Shown here piece by piece: positions 1-46,279 of a stretch of 64,000 bases of DNA (positions within the stretch are counted from its first letter, which is position 1; each line of letters opens with the position of its first letter). Origin of the DNA: a virus (lineage: Duplodnaviria > Caudoviricetes); IMG/VR virus record IMGVR_UViG_3300025251_000012, positions 14,444 through 78,443 of that record, one strand, 5' to 3'. The position numbers and the translations under genes are program-made. The notes beneath the pieces are model-generated. The model was not told where the DNA came from, did no database searches, and worked only from the letters and a program-made list of their open reading frames with translations.

Positions 1-1
1 G

Positions 2-595
2 ATGCCGCCCCAGACGCTTCCGGGGGCAAGTGTTGGTGCTACTTCGGGCTCAGCGTTGCGCCCGGATGTTCCAGATCTTTTGGCAGCGAGTACTAATCGC
101 GCAAAAGCTGGTGTTGAAAAGGGTTTCACTGCTAGTACGGCAGGAGCCTTCACTTATAAAGTGGTCGGGGTTAACGCGAACGGCTTTGCTGTAAGCAGCG
201 CTTCGGATCAAATTACTGTAGCTAGTGGCGACGTTGCTCAAATTGCAATTGACCCAGAGGCAACAACCGAGGCGGCTTATTACCGTTTGTATCGCACGCC
301 GGATACAAAAACTGAAGATGCGGACATGCAGTATGTTTGGTCATACCCAAAATCAGCGGGCGGCGAAACTACCATCATTGATGATAATCGTCATGAGCCC
401 GGAACGGCCCCAGTATTTTTCCTCCAGCAAACGCCGGATGTTATGTATTGGGCGCAGTTGCTTGATTTCTTGCGGCGGCCTTTGGCACAAGTCCAAACTT
501 CTATCCCGTTTCTCTTGATGCTTTTTGGAGCACTTCATGTTAAAGTACCGACCAAATGTTCAGTACTTGACAATGCTTCGCTAACAGCGGCGTAA
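2..595 (+). CDS. Major capsid protein, C-terminal part (truncated by window start), SPO1/Twort/K-like
   Basis: C-terminus IIDDNRHEPGTAPVFFLQQTPDVMYWAQLLDFLRRPLAQVQTSIPFLLMLFGALHVKVPTK resembles, from recall, the phage K/A511 capsid end (FVDKNETLPETADVF...LLPMMKLPLAQINASITFAVLWYGAL); followed by neck-sheath-tube genes. Confidence 0.8.
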   Translation: MPPQTLPGASVGATSGSALRPDVPDLLAASTNRAKAGVEKGFTASTAGAFTYKVVGVNANGFAVSSASDQITVASGDVAQIAIDPEATTEAAYYRLYRTPDTKTEDADMQYVWSYPKSAGGETTIIDDNRHEPGTAPVFFLQQTPDVMYWAQLLDFLRRPLAQVQTSIPFLLMLFGALHVKVPTKCSVLDNASLTAA

Positions 596-38376: not shown

Positions 38377-38874
38377 TTACTCCTTTTCCGGTGACCACGC
38401 TTTAATTACGGGCCGTCTTTTGTCTTCGCTAAACACCAGTACGCAAGAAGGCGCTGGTGAGGCGTTGGTTGTTTTCAAATCTCCGCGCATGAAATGGATT
38501 CTACCTTTAATCATTCTTATTTCTGAGGCCTTTAGTGCCCAATCGTGCCACCATTTCGTATCCGACCTTACATAAGTTAGAACTATTACGGTACAACCTT
38601 TAAGGGATTCCTTGTAGGCCTTTTCAATCCACTTACCAATGCCGCGCCCGTATGGGGGGTTTACCCACACAATGTTTGCAGCGGCTGACCAGTCTTTAAG
38701 AAGTGCATTATCCTTCTTAGTAAAGTACGCGTCACACTTTGCAGAGTCTTCTGTAGCACAGGCATCTAGCTCAAATTCAAACTCATCGTCTAACGGATCA
38801 AATATATATGAAGGCGTGTACCATTCATTGCTATTGGATGAGTAAAGTTGTTCGGCGTTCCAGGGCGATGTCAT
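38377..38874 (-). CDS. Phage DNA N6-adenine methyltransferase (Dam-like phage family)
   Basis: EWYTP...FELDACA...VWVNPPYG...TKWWH...IKGRIHF. Confidence 0.9.
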   Translation of the reverse strand: MTSPWNAEQLYSSNSNEWYTPSYIFDPLDDEFEFELDACATEDSAKCDAYFTKKDNALLKDWSAAANIVWVNPPYGRGIGKWIEKAYKESLKGCTVIVLTYVRSDTKWWHDWALKASEIRMIKGRIHFMRGDLKTTNASPAPSCVLVFSEDKRRPVIKAWSPEKE

Positions 38875-41583: not shown

Positions 41584-41964
41584 ATGGTTTTGCGCTTACA
41601 TAAATGGCCACAAGGTTTAGACTCTTGTCTTAATTGCACCTCGACTCCGGTGGAGGCGAGTTATGCCAGTCGCGGCCTTTGTACACGTTGCTACGATAAA
41701 CATCGTCGCCACGGCACACTAAAGAAGTACGAATTTTTAGGCGCTAGTTGGAAATCTACAGCAAAAAACCCAACGTTAAGAGCCGTCCGTAAAATAGGCA
41801 TCACTATAACCGCTATGTTGGTTGGCGAAGACCCCGGTGTAATCAGGGTCTGGTGTAAAGAAGGCACCCCTAAAAACATGCAGGCGATTATGGACGAAGC
41901 CCTTCTAATTATAAACTCGAAGAACCCCGACCACAGGGCATTGCTTTTCCCAGACGACCACTAG
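41584..41964 (+). CDS. Zn-finger-like protein, possible DNA-binding regulator
   Basis: CLNC...RGLCTRCY; C-terminal HTH-like TAMLVGEDPGVIRVWCKEG. Confidence 0.5.
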   Translation: MVLRLHKWPQGLDSCLNCTSTPVEASYASRGLCTRCYDKHRRHGTLKKYEFLGASWKSTAKNPTLRAVRKIGITITAMLVGEDPGVIRVWCKEGTPKNMQAIMDEALLIINSKNPDHRALLFPDDH

Positions 41965-42006: not shown

Positions 42007-44082
42007 GTGGCACTCGGAGATACTTTGCGAGCCAGGTTAGTCACAACAACCTTAGTTTTAGTACTGGCAAGCAGTTGTAGCAAGAGCAGCGGCGATGGGT
42101 TTTCGCCCAATGAACTGGACGCGGTGGATACCCTTAGCTTTGTAGACGCCGATACTTACGACCCCCATACCGGGGATACCTACGAATACGAAAAGCGTTG
42201 TTACCAAGACCAATATTGGTACTGCCCGCCCCTATCTGCTGTGTGGCGCAAAGTGGTTACAGTAGATATATGCGACGAAAACGGCGACCCGTGCACAGCC
42301 TCCGAGTGTCAGTGGTCTATCGTAACTATGGGTGACTGCGAAGAAATCTTTGAATGCGACCCTACGGGGCCGACCAATCTCGGTGAAATTGTGTGCGAGG
42401 TTGATGGGCTTTTAGGAGTTCAAACTAAATACTGTGACAAAGGCTTCTTTTCATACAGCCCATGTGACCCTTGTACAGATGAGATTTGTGACAGCATAGA
42501 CAACGATTGCGATGGGACAACAGATGAGGGTTTGTACCCATGCTCCACTGATTGCGGCGATGGTGAGGGTGCCTGCATAAATGGCAAGGTAACGCTGTGT
42601 TCCGCGCCCGAGCCCACGGAAGAGGTCTGCAACTACGTTGATGACGACTGCGACGGTCTTACTGATGAGGGTCAAACAAACATTTGTAATCTATGCGGCG
42701 ATGTTCCGAGCGAAGATTGCGATAGTTTTGACAATGACTGCGATGGGCTGATTGATGAGGATTTGCTAGATGGCTGTAGTACGGCCTGTGGCGATGGCTA
42801 TAAAACGTGTGTTTCCGGTATGTGGACCCTGTGCTCCGCGCAAGAGCCTCAAGACGAGGTGTGTAATGGGTTGGATGACGACTGCAATGGTTATATAGAC
42901 GACGGGATTAGCTGCGGCTGCCCCCCGGAAGATGTTGGGGCAATATTCCCCTGCCTTGAGCCGCCGCTCGTATGCGGCCAAGGCTACAAACAATGCGCAT
43001 GTGTGGACGTGGGTTGTGCAGAGACCGCGATGACGGAGTGCCACGCCCCCTGCCATTTCTTCCCGATACCCGGCCAGACGTGTGATGACACTCTTGGAGT
43101 TCCATACCCAGAGGTCTGCAATAACCACGACGACGATTGCGACACCTTGATAGACGAAGATCTTGTCAAGGGATGTTACACCGGGCCTCCAGCAACAGAG
43201 GGCGTTGGCGAGTGCATCCCCGGCGAGATGACGTGTCTCGCGGGCAAGTGGGGCGGTAAAGTTAAAACTTCTAATACCCCAGAGACATTTGTGGAAGGCC
43301 TCTGCGTTGGTGAAGTAACGCCCATGTCCGAAGATCTCTGCGGCGGGGCAGACAATGATTGCAATGGTCAGGTTGAAAAAGAGCTAGAGGATACAGACAT
43401 CCTTTTCATCATTGACGCTTCAGGGTCCATGTACGAAGAAATTGGGGCAGTGGCGCAAGCAATGACCACATTTGCGGCAAGCTACTCCGGCTCCACCGCA
43501 ATTCATTGGGGGCTGGTTACCGGACCTACGGCAGTTGGTTCTGGGTTGTCTGAGAAGCTATATCTCAACCAAAATCTTACTGAGTTCTCTACCTTTGTAC
43601 CCGCGCTTTCCGCAATGGCTACGTCGTATCTTGGCGGGGCCAATGAGATGTTATATGACGCCCTCTATTTAGCAGCGCACAACCTTGTAGATCCTCAAAC
43701 GCTACCGCACCAAATATCAGATCTTGCGTGGGGGCCGGGAGCCAACCCGTCAGTTCCTAGCATCCAAGGTTTCAAGATTAATTGGCGGGAAAACGCTCAC
43801 CACGTGATTATCGTGTTCTCGGACGAAATGGGTCAGAGCTATCTCAAGCCTATGTTGTCCCAGCAGAACCTAGTAGACGTTCTAAGCCATGCGGACGACC
43901 TATCTGTTTATACTTTTAGTACCGGGTTCACAAAAGACGTAACCGACTGGCTGGGCAACAAAGTCGGCTGGGAATCGGTTTCTGTTGGCGGCTCTTGGAA
44001 CGAACTGAGCACAGACCCAACAAAAATGTTTGGTGCATTGATGGACATTTTGGATGAAACCGCCTGCGGAGGTGCCCCATGA
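42007..44082 (+). CDS. Myxobacterial-type surface lipoprotein: six Cys/Asp-rich (MopE-like) repeats + C-terminal vWA domain
   Basis: Signal LVLVLASSC; repeats EICDSIDNDCDGTTDEG, EVCNYVDDDCDGLTDEG, EDCDSFDNDCDGLIDED, EVCNGLDDDCNGYIDDG, EVCNNHDDDCDTLIDED, DLCGGADNDCNGQVEKE; MIDAS DILFIIDASGSM; IIVFSDE. Confidence 0.85.
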   Translation: MALGDTLRARLVTTTLVLVLASSCSKSSGDGFSPNELDAVDTLSFVDADTYDPHTGDTYEYEKRCYQDQYWYCPPLSAVWRKVVTVDICDENGDPCTASECQWSIVTMGDCEEIFECDPTGPTNLGEIVCEVDGLLGVQTKYCDKGFFSYSPCDPCTDEICDSIDNDCDGTTDEGLYPCSTDCGDGEGACINGKVTLCSAPEPTEEVCNYVDDDCDGLTDEGQTNICNLCGDVPSEDCDSFDNDCDGLIDEDLLDGCSTACGDGYKTCVSGMWTLCSAQEPQDEVCNGLDDDCNGYIDDGISCGCPPEDVGAIFPCLEPPLVCGQGYKQCACVDVGCAETAMTECHAPCHFFPIPGQTCDDTLGVPYPEVCNNHDDDCDTLIDEDLVKGCYTGPPATEGVGECIPGEMTCLAGKWGGKVKTSNTPETFVEGLCVGEVTPMSEDLCGGADNDCNGQVEKELEDTDILFIIDASGSMYEEIGAVAQAMTTFAASYSGSTAIHWGLVTGPTAVGSGLSEKLYLNQNLTEFSTFVPALSAMATSYLGGANEMLYDALYLAAHNLVDPQTLPHQISDLAWGPGANPSVPSIQGFKINWRENAHHVIIVFSDEMGQSYLKPMLSQQNLVDVLSHADDLSVYTFSTGFTKDVTDWLGNKVGWESVSVGGSWNELSTDPTKMFGALMDILDETACGGAP

Positions 44083-44379: not shown

Positions 44380-44642
44380 ATAGGGCACTTGGCAGGGGGA
44401 CAAGGGTAGAGGTTAAAAGGCCTATTGAGGTCACTTGCCCAACTAAAGATAAGACTATCCAAATAGTCGTTGCCCAAGGCACTACCGGAACCATCTTAGA
44501 AATCATACCGAACCTTCGTGTTCGACTTGACGATGTGTACGAGGGGAAAATCCGGGAAATACGGTGGCATTCAAGCGCAAAGATTAACGACGACTTGGTT
44601 TCTATTGATGACGAAGAGAGGCGATTGTGGGTGGTCAAATAG
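44343..44642 (+). CDS. Hypothetical small beta-rich protein
   Basis: ORF within + island; true start may be GTG near 44376. Confidence 0.45.
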   Translation: MADGQWSFRRGVNRALGRGTRVEVKRPIEVTCPTKDKTIQIVVAQGTTGTILEIIPNLRVRLDDVYEGKIREIRWHSSAKINDDLVSIDDEERRLWVVK

Positions 44643-45511
44643 TAAGATTATTTTTGGCGTTCTTAGTAGTGATAGCGCTTTCTTGTGCGGGCACAACCGG
44701 TGGGTCTACAGCAGTTACACAGCCTAAACTGCCCAGGGCCTCATTCGTTTTCTTGACGCACACATATTCAGAAAACCTTTGCCACAAAGACCAATGTATA
44801 CCGGCAAGTAGGGTTAAATTTGTTGGGTCAGGGTTTTCCATAGCAACAGATAAAACCGGATCGCTAATTATGACGGCTGGGCACCTTTGTAAGCGTCCGG
44901 TCCCTAAGTACACAGGCGGCTTTAGGATGTCTACTGAATCTAGTATGACAGCGGCAACCCCAGGCGGGGGGAAATACCCTGCAAAGGTGCTTGCGGTATA
45001 CACGGGAATTGACGCGTGTGTGTTGAGGATCGACGGTGTGCACATAACCCCTGTTAAATTTGCAACCGAGGCACCAAAATATGGGGAGCGTGTTTATGCA
45101 CTTGCGGCCCCGCTTGGGTTGTACTCGTCCGAGATGTTACCGAAATTCGAGGGCTTCTACTCTGGCAGCGCTTATAAGGTCGCAAAACCTTCCCCATGGA
45201 CAGGCTCTTTTGATGAACTAACTATTTACACAATACCCACAAGAGGTGGCAGCAGCGGTGCCCCGGTATTCAATTCAAAGGGCGAGGTCATTGGAATTAT
45301 AATCATGGCCGCTATTAGCCTAGAAAACTTGTGCTGGTCCCCAACATTTGAAGCCCTACAACAGATTTGGTTAGCTTTAGAGCGAGAGGCATATGGGAAA
45401 AAGAAAGAAGAAGGCAAAAACAGTTGGGAAAGAGGCGCAAGCGCGCCCAACAATGAAAATTTCACACCGGAATATGTTAAGTGTTTCCTCACAAAAGAAG
45501 AAGCGAAATAA
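44627..45511 (+). CDS. Exported trypsin-like serine protease (lipoprotein-like signal)
   Basis: Triad TAGHLC / IDACVL / RGGSSGAPVFN; N-term LFLAFLVVIALSC. Confidence 0.85.
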   Translation: MGGQIVRLFLAFLVVIALSCAGTTGGSTAVTQPKLPRASFVFLTHTYSENLCHKDQCIPASRVKFVGSGFSIATDKTGSLIMTAGHLCKRPVPKYTGGFRMSTESSMTAATPGGGKYPAKVLAVYTGIDACVLRIDGVHITPVKFATEAPKYGERVYALAAPLGLYSSEMLPKFEGFYSGSAYKVAKPSPWTGSFDELTIYTIPTRGGSSGAPVFNSKGEVIGIIIMAAISLENLCWSPTFEALQQIWLALEREAYGKKKEEGKNSWERGASAPNNENFTPEYVKCFLTKEEAK

Positions 45512-45676: not shown

Positions 45677-46279
45677 TTATCTTTTTCTGTGAATGGAGTC
45701 CGAGCCCTCGGTTTCCATTTCATTTAAAGGCAGCCTGTTAAAGATCTGGTTGTCATACATTTCAAGCAGGCGTTTCATGCTTCTTACTCTTCTAGCGTAA
45801 CCCTTTGACCTTTTATTACACACGCGCCCAGCATTGTAATGACACTGGTAACTGTCGCCGTAGGCATTTTTAAACTTTTTTACTGCCTTTAGACCCGCAG
45901 CTATGACATCGCAGCCACGTGCACGCCGTTTGGGGCAGAAGTACCTAGGCAAAATTTGTAGTGGCCCTATGGCCCCAGCAGATGACACAGCAGTCATAGA
46001 GAATTTGCTTTCGTAATAACCAATGGCGACGACCTCTGGGATAGAGAGTCCGTAGTCTTCGGCCTTACTAGCCAAGGTGACGCACGTCTTCATGCGCGGC
46101 GGAAGGTTTTTAGCTAGTTTATTTCTGTAACTTTTAGACCCCACGTTATGAAATAGCGTAGACAGGGCAAGAGCACAGTGTACCTCTGCTCTTAAAGAGG
46201 GCGTGTCCTGGTTTTTTGCGAACGCAAGATCTGTGATTCCAATATGGAAGATGACGGCCAGCGCTATAATCAAGTTCAT
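45677..46279 (-). CDS. Lytic transglycosylase (SLT domain) with N-terminal signal/anchor; endolysin candidate
   Basis: VVAIGYYESKFSMTAVSSAGAIGPLQILP and HYNAG motifs; hydrophobic N-terminus. Confidence 0.8.
   Translation of the reverse strand: MNLIIALAVIFHIGITDLAFAKNQDTPSLRAEVHCALALSTLFHNVGSKSYRNKLAKNLPPRMKTCVTLASKAEDYGLSIPEVVAIGYYESKFSMTAVSSAGAIGPLQILPRYFCPKRRARGCDVIAAGLKAVKKFKNAYGDSYQCHYNAGRVCNKRSKGYARRVRSMKRLLEMYDNQIFNRLPLNEMETEGSDSIHRKR

What the first reader, a model, noticed from the sequence alone, without database searches (positions are those of the whole stretch)
42007..44082. Phage-encoded CglB/CglD-like integrin-type adhesin (lipoprotein + Cys/Asp repeats + MIDAS vWA)
Seen: signal ending in Cys, six E-x-C-x3-D-x-D-C-(D/N)-x3-(D/E) repeats (nt about 42480-43390) and a vWA domain with intact DxSxS. 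Known: these repeats are greatly expanded in Myxococcota surface proteins, and the M. xanthus gliding adhesins CglB and CglD are Cys-rich outer-membrane lipoproteins with vWA domains. Inference: a captured myxobacterial adhesin, which is both the best host clue in the window and a candidate auxiliary gene for manipulating motility or cell-cell contact.
Basis: partly seen in the sequence, partly recalled or inferred. Interest (0 to 1): 0.85.

Follow-up and report, generated by a model that had tools for sequence, protein, structure and literature searches.

The report
Phage-specific integrin-like surface lipoprotein family
This marine phage encodes a large exported, lipid-anchored, cysteine- and calcium-motif-rich protein with an integrin-type metal-dependent binding head; it belongs to a big, undescribed family found only in viruses, not a gene recently taken from myxobacteria.

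Summary
ORF 42007-44082 (+) encodes a 691-aa protein with a lipoprotein signal (Cys24), six Cys/Asp MopE-type repeats (nt 42487-43377) and a C-terminal VWA domain with DxSxS.

The layout (lipid anchor, Cys/Asp stalk, beta-integrin-like MIDAS head) does parallel the published M. xanthus adhesin CglD. But this is not a recently captured myxobacterial gene:
- All close relatives (37-74% identity, full length) lie on viral contigs from marine metagenomes, including complete genomes of about 185-285 kb.
- A complete 186-kb carrier shares only 5 of 155 ORFs with this 78-kb phage.
- None of about 900 sampled cellular genomes (301 Myxococcota) holds a member.
- The N-terminal domain occurs nowhere else among 1.84 billion representative proteins.
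- Similarity to Myxococcota proteins is limited to the repeat module and a MIDAS-proximal motif, and is no more specific for CglB-like proteins than for another VWA lipoprotein.
- Carrier GC (median 41%) does not fit typical Myxococcota.

The gene co-occurs with a trypsin-like lipoprotein protease, which is adjacent here.

Most likely function: a binding protein displayed on the envelope of the infected cell. Ligand and host are unknown. The scan had flagged this family before on other phage DNA.

The parts
42007..44082 (+). Whole ORF as listed (GTG start), 691 aa. The mature lipoprotein is 668 aa, 71 kDa, pI 4.05, with 48 Cys besides the lipid-anchor Cys.
42016..42027 (+). GGAG Shine-Dalgarno (42016-42019), a 5-nt spacer, then the in-frame TTG at 42025, the probable true start (MRARLV...).
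   Evidence: Sequence. The analogous GGGAGG-N5-ATG and 18-aa signal are present in the closest homologue L089.
42025..42078 (+). Lipoprotein signal peptide ending in the lipobox L-A-S-S-C. The Cys24 codon is at 42076-42078.
   Evidence: Pattern match. Cys24 is invariant in the 72-sequence alignment. A lipobox is found in 73 of 79 family members with an intact N-terminus. The AF2 model has a helix at residues 4-22.
42079..42174 (+). Acidic, proline-rich flexible tether (aa 25-56). Its length varies from 34 to 87 aa across the family.
   Evidence: pLDDT below 50 for residues 25-54. Composition is D/P/E-rich and conservation is lowest here, 0.31.
42175..42456 (+). Family-specific N-terminal beta-rich domain (aa 57-150) with 9 conserved Cys. 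No known fold.
   Evidence: Domain model pLDDT 91.8. Best PDB Z is 4.0. Only 77 hits in 1.84 billion representative proteins. In all but a few 5'-truncated fragments the domain lies near the N-terminus (starting at about residues 25-150), in proteins of family size or in fragments.
42457..43386 (+). Cys/Asp-rich stalk (aa 151-460). It holds six MopE-type C-x3-D-x-D-C-[DN]-x3-[DE] motifs (nt 42487-43377) alternating with Cys-knotted beta-hairpin modules. Three motifs contain a strict DxDxDG.
   Evidence: This is the most conserved region of the family, 0.66.
43387..44070 (+). VWA domain (aa 461-688), beta-integrin I-like. D470-x-S472-x-S474-M475 is encoded at nt 43414-43431. E547, D551, W593, R594, D606 and E607 are invariant.
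   Evidence: Pfam. Foldseek top hits are integrin beta7/beta8/beta3, ANTXR2, LapA vWFA and TRAP. The PDB profile's best hit is integrin beta-8, E 4.8e-4. The listed residues are invariant in 85 of 85 sequences.
44627..45511 (+). Trypsin-like serine protease (294 aa) with its own lipoprotein signal (…VVIALS-C). It co-occurs with the adhesin in other phages.
   Evidence: Pfam Trypsin_2, 3.9e-20. Lipobox. Present in 9 of 10 carrier records and 6 of 6 that are at least 90% complete. Most homologues have a lipobox. In the reverse direction, 17 of 33 long protease contigs carry the adhesin.
45677..46279 (-). SLT-type lytic transglycosylase (200 aa) with a cleavable signal peptide (…DLAFA|KNQ). It is the third envelope-targeted gene of the island.
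   Evidence: Pfam SLT, 1.3e-6. N-terminus. A weak homologue is also present in carrier G003.

Best explanation
The gene encodes a member of a large, virus-only family of exported lipoproteins of about 700 aa.

Proposed mechanism:
1. In the infected cell the precursor is exported by Sec and lipidated at Cys24.
2. It is tethered to the envelope, probably the outer membrane and plausibly facing outward, through a flexible acidic linker.
3. A small family-specific beta domain and a rigid stalk follow. The stalk is held by up to 24 disulfides and by Asp-rich MopE/TSP3-like motifs of a calcium-binding type.
4. The stalk carries a C-terminal beta-integrin-like VWA head, which binds its ligand through a metal ion at an invariant MIDAS-type site (D470, S472, S474, E547, D606).

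It is an auxiliary, non-virion gene that changes what the surface of the infected cell binds. I think adhesion of the infected cell to a surface, a particle or another cell is the most likely role, with masking of a surface receptor close behind.

A co-travelling lipoprotein serine protease probably processes or sheds it, or remodels the same surface.

The family shares its building blocks with Myxococcota envelope proteins. It is a long-established phage lineage exchanged among unrelated marine phages, not a recent capture, and it does not identify the host.
For: Shown:
- The ORF, signal and lipobox, repeats and DxSxS are present.
- The lipobox Cys, about 40 other Cys and the MIDAS-related residues are invariant across the family.
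- The confident model has the order signal helix, disordered tether, beta domain, Cys-rich stalk, VWA.
- The VWA's best matches are extracellular MIDAS adhesion domains, mainly integrin beta I-like.
- The gene lies outside the structural module, in a + strand island with two other exported proteins.
- The family is viral only: more than 2,500 relatives in marine metagenomes with phage-like contexts, 80 IMG/VR loci, and Atlas clusters labelled 100% Viruses.
- The N-domain is exclusive to the family.
- No member was found in 903 sampled cellular genomes.
- Carriers are unrelated to this phage: only 5 of 155 ORFs are shared with the complete 186-kb G003, and the adhesin is the strongest of them at 541 bits.
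- The protease co-occurs with the adhesin.

Inferred: surface exposure, calcium binding by the repeats, disulfide formation, the identity of the ligand, the biological role, and any protease-adhesin relationship.
Against: - No experiment or expression data exist.
- Surface exposure as opposed to a periplasmic orientation is not shown.
- The canonical MIDAS Thr is not conserved.
- The stalk has no sequence match to COMP or any other solved calcium-binding repeat.
- Many carriers appear to be one clade of roughly 190-kb phages. Protease co-occurrence could therefore partly reflect shared ancestry rather than function, and the two genes are usually not adjacent.
- No promoter or terminator signal above chance flanks the gene.
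Confidence: 0.6

Rival explanations
1. Superinfection-exclusion or anti-adsorption lipoprotein. The MIDAS head binds and masks a host surface receptor or appendage. This blocks later phages and stops progeny being lost on cell debris, as T5 Llp does with FhuA.
For: Phage-encoded lipoproteins that mask receptors are an established class (review PMC8829019). The protein is exported and lipid-anchored. It is kept by unrelated phages, as a generally useful accessory gene would be. The VWA segments away from the metal site are variable (conservation 0.34-0.47), which fits differing targets.
Against: Known receptor-masking lipoproteins are small, whereas this one has a long stalk that would hold the head far from the membrane. 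Unrelated phages would be expected to use different receptors, yet the metal site and much of the head are conserved. No receptor or host is known.
Confidence: 0.22
2. One reading: a recently captured myxobacterial CglB/CglD orthologue. It would mark a Myxococcota host and act on gliding adhesion complexes.
For: - Repeat-region hits in cellular genomes are mostly Myxococcota.
- VWA-only profile hits at E<=1e-5 occur in 39 of 301 Myxococcota genomes, against 4 of 301 Bacteroidota and 0 of 301 Pseudomonadota.
- The best hits in Myxococcaceae genomes are lipoproteins of about 404-460 aa that resemble CglB in size, lipobox position (C20/C21) and DxSxS position (54-58).
- The nearest bacterial Atlas clusters are Myxococcota TSP3/MopE/VWA proteins.
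- The layout parallels CglD.
Against: - There is no family member in 301 Myxococcota genomes; the best hit is 32 bits, against roughly 260-290 bits for family members under the same profile.
- Similarity is confined to the repeats (26-43% identity) and to about 40 residues around DxSxS.
- hhalign is no better for CglB-like proteins than for another VWA lipoprotein.
- The frames of about 1100 aa that were hit are not CglD: DxSxS lies near residue 800, there is no DxDxDG, and they have 18-20 Cys.
- The N-domain is absent from all cellular proteins.
- Carrier GC has a median of 41% against 68%.
- No match was found among 50,697 deposited phage genomes, a collection that includes Myxococcus phage Mx1.
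Confidence: 0.07
3. Periplasm-facing envelope factor linked to lysis or wall remodelling. The lipoprotein would act with the neighbouring SLT transglycosylase and protease on the cell wall or outer membrane, in a spanin-like or release-related role, rather than as a surface adhesin.
For: It sits in one island with a secreted SLT and a lipoprotein protease. Outer-membrane lipoproteins face the periplasm by default. All three gene types recur in the unrelated carrier G003.
Against: The size, the stalk and the invariant MIDAS site have no parallel among spanins or lysis proteins. No inner-membrane spanin partner is evident. In most carriers the three genes are dispersed, 0.5 to about 110 kb apart. 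All the best structural matches of the head are extracellular adhesion domains.
Confidence: 0.08

Closest known systems
[quoted passage not shown]
   Same: - It is a lipoprotein.
- An Asp-rich calcium-type repeat region lies N-terminal to a Cys-rich stalk.
- It has a beta-integrin I-like VWA with DxSxS.
- It has many disulfide-forming Cys (46 in CglD, 49 here).
- The physical order is the same: anchor, stalk, head.
   Different: - CglD is 1130 aa with twelve DxDxDG motifs matched to COMP. The phage protein is 691 aa with six MopE-type motifs, and its stalk has no PDB sequence match.
- The phage protein has its own N-domain.
- No protein with CglD's features was retrieved by the VWA profile in five Myxococcaceae genomes.
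- The phage family is viral only.
CglB of Myxococcus xanthus, a VWA surface lipoprotein and gliding adhesin (PMC9946355)
   Same: It is a lipoprotein with a MIDAS VWA domain stabilised by disulfides. CglB-like lipoproteins are the top hits of the phage VWA in Myxococcaceae genomes, and they share the motif TDILF-[IV]-[IV]-D-x-SGSM-x-E-E and a V-x-SDE strand.
   Different: - CglB is 416 aa with a jellyroll plus an alpha-I-like VWA and no repeat stalk.
- Identity is 25-28% over the VWA only.
- The hhalign score is not better than for an unrelated 1077-aa VWA lipoprotein.
- The proteins I compared are CglB-like, not proven CglB: 404 aa and 9-11 Cys, against 416 aa and 17 Cys.
Integrin beta-subunit I-like domains (beta8, beta7, beta3)
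   Same: They are the best Foldseek hits (E about 1e-6, probability 1.00, about 280 columns) and the only significant PDB sequence-profile hits. They share DxxxxVDxSxSM and the (I/G)-WR-x-x-A-x-r-x-x-x-v-x-x-D strand.
   Different: Identity is 12-14%. There is no hybrid or PSI domain and no alpha-subunit partner. The anchor is an N-terminal lipid rather than a C-terminal helix. Equivalence of the ADMIDAS and SyMBS sites was not tested.
Myxococcota TSP3/MopE/VWA proteins (ESM Atlas cluster of about 756 aa) and giant MopE-repeat proteins
   Same: They use the same repeat module (PF11617), sometimes combined with VWA. They are the nearest cellular look-alikes.
   Different: Atlas scores are 0.80-0.83, which is lead level only. 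tblastn identity is 26-43% over the repeats only. Their architectures are heterogeneous, up to 3,205 aa and 252 Cys. None has the N-domain.
Phage T5 Llp, a receptor-masking lipoprotein (PMC8829019)
   Same: It is a phage-encoded lipoprotein made in the infected cell that acts at the outer membrane.
   Different: From my own knowledge, Llp is a small protein with no VWA, no repeats and no metal site. No sequence or fold relationship was found or expected.

Membership tests
Pfam PF11617 (Cu-binding_MopE, putative metal-binding motif) | The score exceeds the curated gathering threshold. | tested here: met
   51.4 bits against a cut-off of 27, with four stretches. Six regex copies.
VWA domain (PF00092) with MIDAS | A VWA Rossmann-like fold plus DxSxS and a distal Asp. 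| tested here: met
   25.6 bits against a cut-off of 23.8. Foldseek gives probability 1.00 to many VWA structures. D470, S472, S474 and D606 are invariant in 85 of 85 sequences.
VWA domain (PF00092) with MIDAS | The canonical MIDAS Thr. | tested here: inconclusive
   The position in 'GG-x-E' is variable, while E547 is invariant. Beta integrins use Glu here, which I recall from memory. The geometry could not be checked because no coordinates were available.
Bacterial lipoprotein (SPase II substrate) | An n-region, an h-region and a lipobox [LVI..][ASTG][GAS]-C. | tested here: met
   Pattern match at LASS-C24, conserved across the family. No dedicated predictor such as SignalP or LipoP was available, and lipidation itself is untested.
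CglB (M. xanthus) | A lipoprotein of about 416 aa made only of a jellyroll plus a VWA. | tested here: not met
   The phage protein is 691 aa with an extra N-domain and a 310-aa repeat stalk, against the published description.
CglB (M. xanthus) | Specific sequence kinship beyond that of a generic VWA. | tested here: not met
   hhalign gives 95.7-95.9% against CglB-like lipoproteins and 94.4% against an unrelated VWA lipoprotein. HMMER scores are 32 bits or less.
CglB (M. xanthus) | Works with the Glt outer-membrane platform at focal adhesions. | not testable with these tools
   The host is unknown. No glt-like gene was noticed in the window, and no dedicated search was made.
CglD (M. xanthus) | A lipoprotein with an Asp-rich calcium-type repeat region, then a Cys-rich stalk, then a beta-I-like MIDAS VWA. 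| tested here: met
   Met at the level of layout only, against the description.
CglD (M. xanthus) | 1130 aa, twelve DxDxDG motifs matching COMP, MIDAS at D656. | tested here: not met
   691 aa. Only three of the six motifs are strict DxDxDG. The stalk has no COMP or other PDB match.
CglD (M. xanthus) | Detectable sequence kinship of the VWA domains. | tested here: inconclusive
   The VWA profile retrieved no protein with CglD's features in five Myxococcaceae genomes. The frames of about 1100 aa that I inspected are different proteins. No verified CglD sequence was on hand.
Receptor-masking phage lipoproteins (T5 Llp type) | A small lipoprotein that binds the phage's own receptor. | not testable with these tools
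   The lipoprotein feature is met and the small size is not. Receptor and host are unknown (for the class).

The most novel reading that the evidence does not exclude
A 'virocell integrin' module. Unrelated marine phages, including jumbo phages of about 190-285 kb, exchange a two-gene set: a calcium-stiffened, lipid-anchored MIDAS adhesin and a lipoprotein serine protease that trims or sheds it. The set would reprogram what infected cells stick to, whether particles, neighbouring cells or their own receptors. Phages would thereby control the aggregation or particle attachment of infected cells in the ocean.
Probability: 0.22. Interest if true: 0.8.

Novelty: new variant of a known kind. Interest (0 to 1): 0.6.

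Why it matters
Phage auxiliary genes that act on the outside of the infected cell are poorly known. The examples I know of are small receptor-masking lipoproteins.

Here there is a large, strongly conserved, virus-only family with an integrin-like binding head. It is widespread in marine viral contigs and shared by phages that have almost nothing else in common. That pattern implies a generally useful function at the cell surface.

If the protein mediates adhesion, infection would change how marine bacteria attach to particles or to each other, which bears on phage transmission and particle-associated carbon flux. If it masks receptors, it would be a new and unusually elaborate type of exclusion device.

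It is also a caution for host prediction. The 'myxobacterial-type' repeats have been read as a host clue several times in this scan, and the evidence here does not support that use.

Tried and rejected
- **No hit in annotation libraries.** NCBIfam and PHROGs gave nothing for the protein.
- **No hit in deposited phages.** tblastn against 50,697 deposited phage genomes found no match.
- **No transcription signals.** Promoter and terminator scans around the island found no more than chance: 5 found against 4.9 expected, and 3 against 4.7.
- **DUF5658 coupling does not hold here.** Earlier scan notes reported it, and it is seen in L002 and L003. In this window the upstream 126-aa ORF is soluble, has CxxC…CxxC and has no Pfam hit.
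- **The neighbourhood is not conserved.** Only L089 shares the window's flanks.
- **The N-domain fold is unassigned.** The wide PDB search gave a best Z of 4.0. The nearest Atlas rows are viral family fragments.
- **The stalk has no PDB sequence match**.
- **BFVD has no named viral counterpart of the whole architecture**.
- **Host placement through other genes failed.** PolA, the baseplate protein, the terminase and the capsid have only remote or no cultured relatives, with mixed hosts. The window has no tRNA.
- **I withdrew the label 'CglD-sized'.** I first read the frames of about 1110-1146 aa hit in Myxococcaceae that way. The ones I inspected are different VWA lipoproteins.
- **Scan limits.** Counts are lower bounds, and absence from cellular genomes rests on the sampled phylum scans.
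- **Not run.** Complex prediction was not run, because an enzyme-substrate pair is a poor use of it.
- **Unpublished genome.** G205 appeared.
Full report
**1. The observation**

The ORF 42007-44082 (+) is open and encodes 691 aa.
- The N-terminus has two Arg, a hydrophobic run and L-A-S-S-C. Cys24 fits the lipobox pattern.
- DxSxS is D470-A-S-G-S474.
- Pfam gives PF11617 (MopE-type motif) at 51.4 bits against a cut-off of 27, and VWA at 25.6 bits against 23.8.
- The protein has 49 Cys, 74 Asp and 47 Glu. The mature form is 668 aa, 71 kDa and pI 4.05, with 48 Cys besides the anchor Cys.
- A GGAG lies 5 nt before an in-frame TTG at 42025. The closest homologue, L089, has GGGAGG-N5-ATG and an 18-aa signal. 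TTG 42025 is therefore the likelier start, and the signal is intact either way.

The window is part of a 78,443-bp IMG/VR virus record rated complete by CheckV. It carries baseplate, tail-fibre, PolA, DnaB and SbcCD genes.

**2. Anatomy**

An AF2 model built on a 72-sequence family alignment is confident, with mean pLDDT 86.5. It shows, in order:
- a signal helix (residues 4-22);
- a disordered acidic tether (25-54);
- a beta-rich domain (about 57-150);
- a long Cys-rich stalk of small hairpin modules (about 151-460);
- a classic alpha/beta VWA domain (463-686).

Foldseek places the head among extracellular MIDAS adhesion domains. The top hits are integrin beta7, beta8 and beta3 I-like domains, followed by ANTXR2/CMG2, the LapA adhesin vWFA and TRAP. 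A VWA-only family profile (A2) finds integrin beta-8 as the only significant PDB sequence match (E 4.8e-4). The aligned segments are DxxxxVDxSxSM and the i(n/g)WRxxAxrxxxvxxD strand.

Across 85 family sequences, D470, S472, S474, M475, E547, D551, W593, R594, D606 and E607 are invariant. Segments 501-540, 561-580 and 621-660 are variable. The classical MIDAS Thr position is not conserved. By analogy with beta integrins, which use Glu (recalled from memory, not tested), E547 is the candidate fifth ligand.

The N-domain, folded alone (pLDDT 91.8), has no convincing structural match; the best Z is 4.0. The stalk has no PDB sequence match.

**3. The family**

The protein has more than 2,500 relatives in the metagenome protein collection. 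The best 120 are mostly full-length, about 650-830 aa, 35-74% identical and largely from marine data sets.
- The three genomic contexts I looked up are phage-like: PolA, a DnaG-type primase, ThyX, Tmk, PDF, ClpP, Ro60/TROVE and many small orphan ORFs.
- ESM Atlas look-alike clusters with score 0.88 or more are all labelled 100% Viruses.
- The lipoprotein signal is present in 73 of 79 members with an intact N-terminus. The tether varies from 34 to 87 aa and is rich in D, P and E.
- The N-domain profile finds only 77 proteins among 1.84 billion representatives. In all but a few 5'-truncated fragments the domain lies near the N-terminus (starting at about residues 25-150), in proteins of family size or in fragments.
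- None of 50,697 deposited phage genomes has the gene.
- I found no paper describing it.

**4. Not a recent capture, and not a host marker**

In one genome per GTDB species, pattern-seeded hits are mostly Myxococcota. They cover only the repeat region (query residues about 130-465, 26-43% identity), in heterogeneous giant Cys-rich proteins.

With the repeat-free VWA profile (A2):
- 301 Myxococcota genomes give no member; the best hit is 32 bits.
- At E<=1e-5, 39 of 301 Myxococcota genomes have a hit (my count from the table), against 4 of 301 Bacteroidota and 0 of 301 Pseudomonadota.

So the nearest cellular relatives are enriched in Myxococcota, which also have larger genomes, but they are remote.

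In Myxococcaceae genomes the best hits are lipoproteins of about 404-460 aa. They resemble published CglB in size, lipobox position (C20/C21) and DxSxS position (54-58), though they have fewer Cys. hhalign gives 95.7-95.9% against them, but 94.4% against an unrelated 1077-aa VWA lipoprotein, so the resemblance is not specific to CglB. The frames of about 1100 aa that were also hit are not CglD.

The layout does parallel CglD as published: lipoprotein, Asp-rich calcium-type repeats, Cys-rich stalk, beta-I-like MIDAS VWA. That is a resemblance in how it is built, not membership.

Carrier loci have a median GC of 41% (range 26-54%), against 68% for the Myxococcota loci. Terminase, capsid, PolA and baseplate have only remote or no cultured relatives, with mixed hosts. 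The host is unresolved.

**5. Spread among unrelated phages, and a travelling partner**

Apart from L089, the window's flanking genes are not found next to the gene elsewhere. Five long carrier records lack detectable relatives of this phage's PolA and baseplate wedge, apart from one weak PolA hit (29% identity over about 180 aa) in G004.

A whole-genome comparison with the complete 186-kb, direct-terminal-repeat carrier G003 (35.7% GC, against 48.7% here) finds 5 shared ORFs out of 155:
- the adhesin (46% identity, 541 bits);
- a trypsin-like protease (140 bits);
- the SLT;
- DnaB;
- one 329-aa ORF.

In the window the protease (44627-45511) lies 0.5 kb downstream and has its own lipobox. The SLT (45677-46279, minus strand) has a cleavable signal.

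The protease is present in 9 of 10 carrier records tested and in all 6 that are at least 90% complete. It lies 0.5 to about 110 kb from the adhesin and is mostly a lipoprotein. In the reverse direction, 17 of 33 protease-bearing viral contigs of 40 kb or more carry the adhesin, although most are fragments of 20-40% completeness.

Because several complete carriers are of similar size (185-193 kb) and may be one clade, part of this association may be inherited. Its recurrence in the unrelated 78-kb phage is the stronger argument for a functional link.

**6. Mechanism**

Shown:
- export and lipobox signals;
- a conserved Cys framework;
- a conserved metal-site motif;
- the adhesion-type VWA fold;
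- a genomic position outside the structural module;
- viral exclusivity.

Inferred:
- Sec export, lipidation and outer-membrane anchoring;
- disulfide and calcium stiffening of the stalk;
- metal-dependent binding of an unknown ligand by the head, on or in the envelope of the infected cell;
- processing or shedding by the partner protease (CglB is itself released by proteolysis).

I favour a role in adhesion of the infected cell, with receptor masking (T5 Llp class) as the main rival. A periplasmic or lysis-linked role and the recent-capture reading are less likely.

**7. Verdict**

This is a new, virus-specific variant of the MIDAS-VWA lipoprotein adhesin theme. It is of moderate to high interest because it is widespread, conserved, undescribed and testable.

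The scan had already flagged this family on other phage genomes. Those were first-reader notes proposing the same host idea, and the evidence here does not support that idea.

Noticed in passing
window 44627-45511 (+): The trypsin-like serine protease carries its own lipoprotein signal. It co-occurs with the adhesin in unrelated marine phage genomes, so it may be a sheddase or processing partner.
   Followed up: yes
window 45677-46279 (-): An SLT lytic transglycosylase with a cleavable Sec signal (AFA|K). It could be a secreted endolysin or a wall-remodelling enzyme. A weak homologue is present in carrier G003.
   Followed up: partly
window 41584-41964 (+): The 126-aa ORF directly upstream has CxxC…CxxC (zinc-ribbon-like), no TM segment and no Pfam hit. 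It is not the DUF5658 membrane protein that precedes the adhesin in other carriers (L002, L003).
   Followed up: partly
L091 and L152 (IMGVR_UViG_3300030329_006583, 267 kb): One jumbo-phage contig carries two full-length copies of the adhesin about 50 kb apart.
   Followed up: no
G003, G914, G915, G916, G926 (carrier records): Five carrier genomes that CheckV rates complete cluster at 185-193 kb. Others reach 284 kb, and fragments have completeness estimates implying genomes above 300 kb. Most carriers may belong to an uncultured marine large-phage clade with no relative in the deposited phage collection.
   Followed up: partly
L291 (G006:C17:58000-68500), L292, L169, L293: Myxococcota encode a subfamily of VWA lipoproteins that share D-[IL]-L-[FL]-V-[IV]-D-N-S-[GC]-S-M-x-[DE]-E-Q and a V-[IV]-[ST]-D-E-[ED] strand. 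The subfamily includes members of about 404 aa (CglB-like) and about 1080 aa, sometimes adjacent to each other. The phage VWA is remotely related to this subfamily as a whole.
   Followed up: partly
family N-termini (P0004-P0121; viral loci L089-L168): After the lipid-anchor Cys, position +2 is mostly Ser and +3 mostly Asp, giving C-S-D. Many signal peptides are rich in K, I, F and L. From memory, this resembles the lipoprotein surface-export signals described for Bacteroidota. It is an untested hint about surface exposure and about possible hosts for part of the family. The window's own protein has C-S-K-S.
   Followed up: no
L290:13494-15038 (G000 capsid gene; its end lies at window 1-595): The major capsid protein has only remote relatives (22-26% identity). 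They include Herelleviridae-type capsids, Thermus phages and Myxococcus phage Mx1 (E 3e-8, weaker than the Bacillus phage hits). This is not informative about the host.
   Followed up: yes
window 38377-38874 (-): A Dam-type N6-adenine methyltransferase (Pfam PF05869, 1.2e-30) lies close to the island.
   Followed up: no
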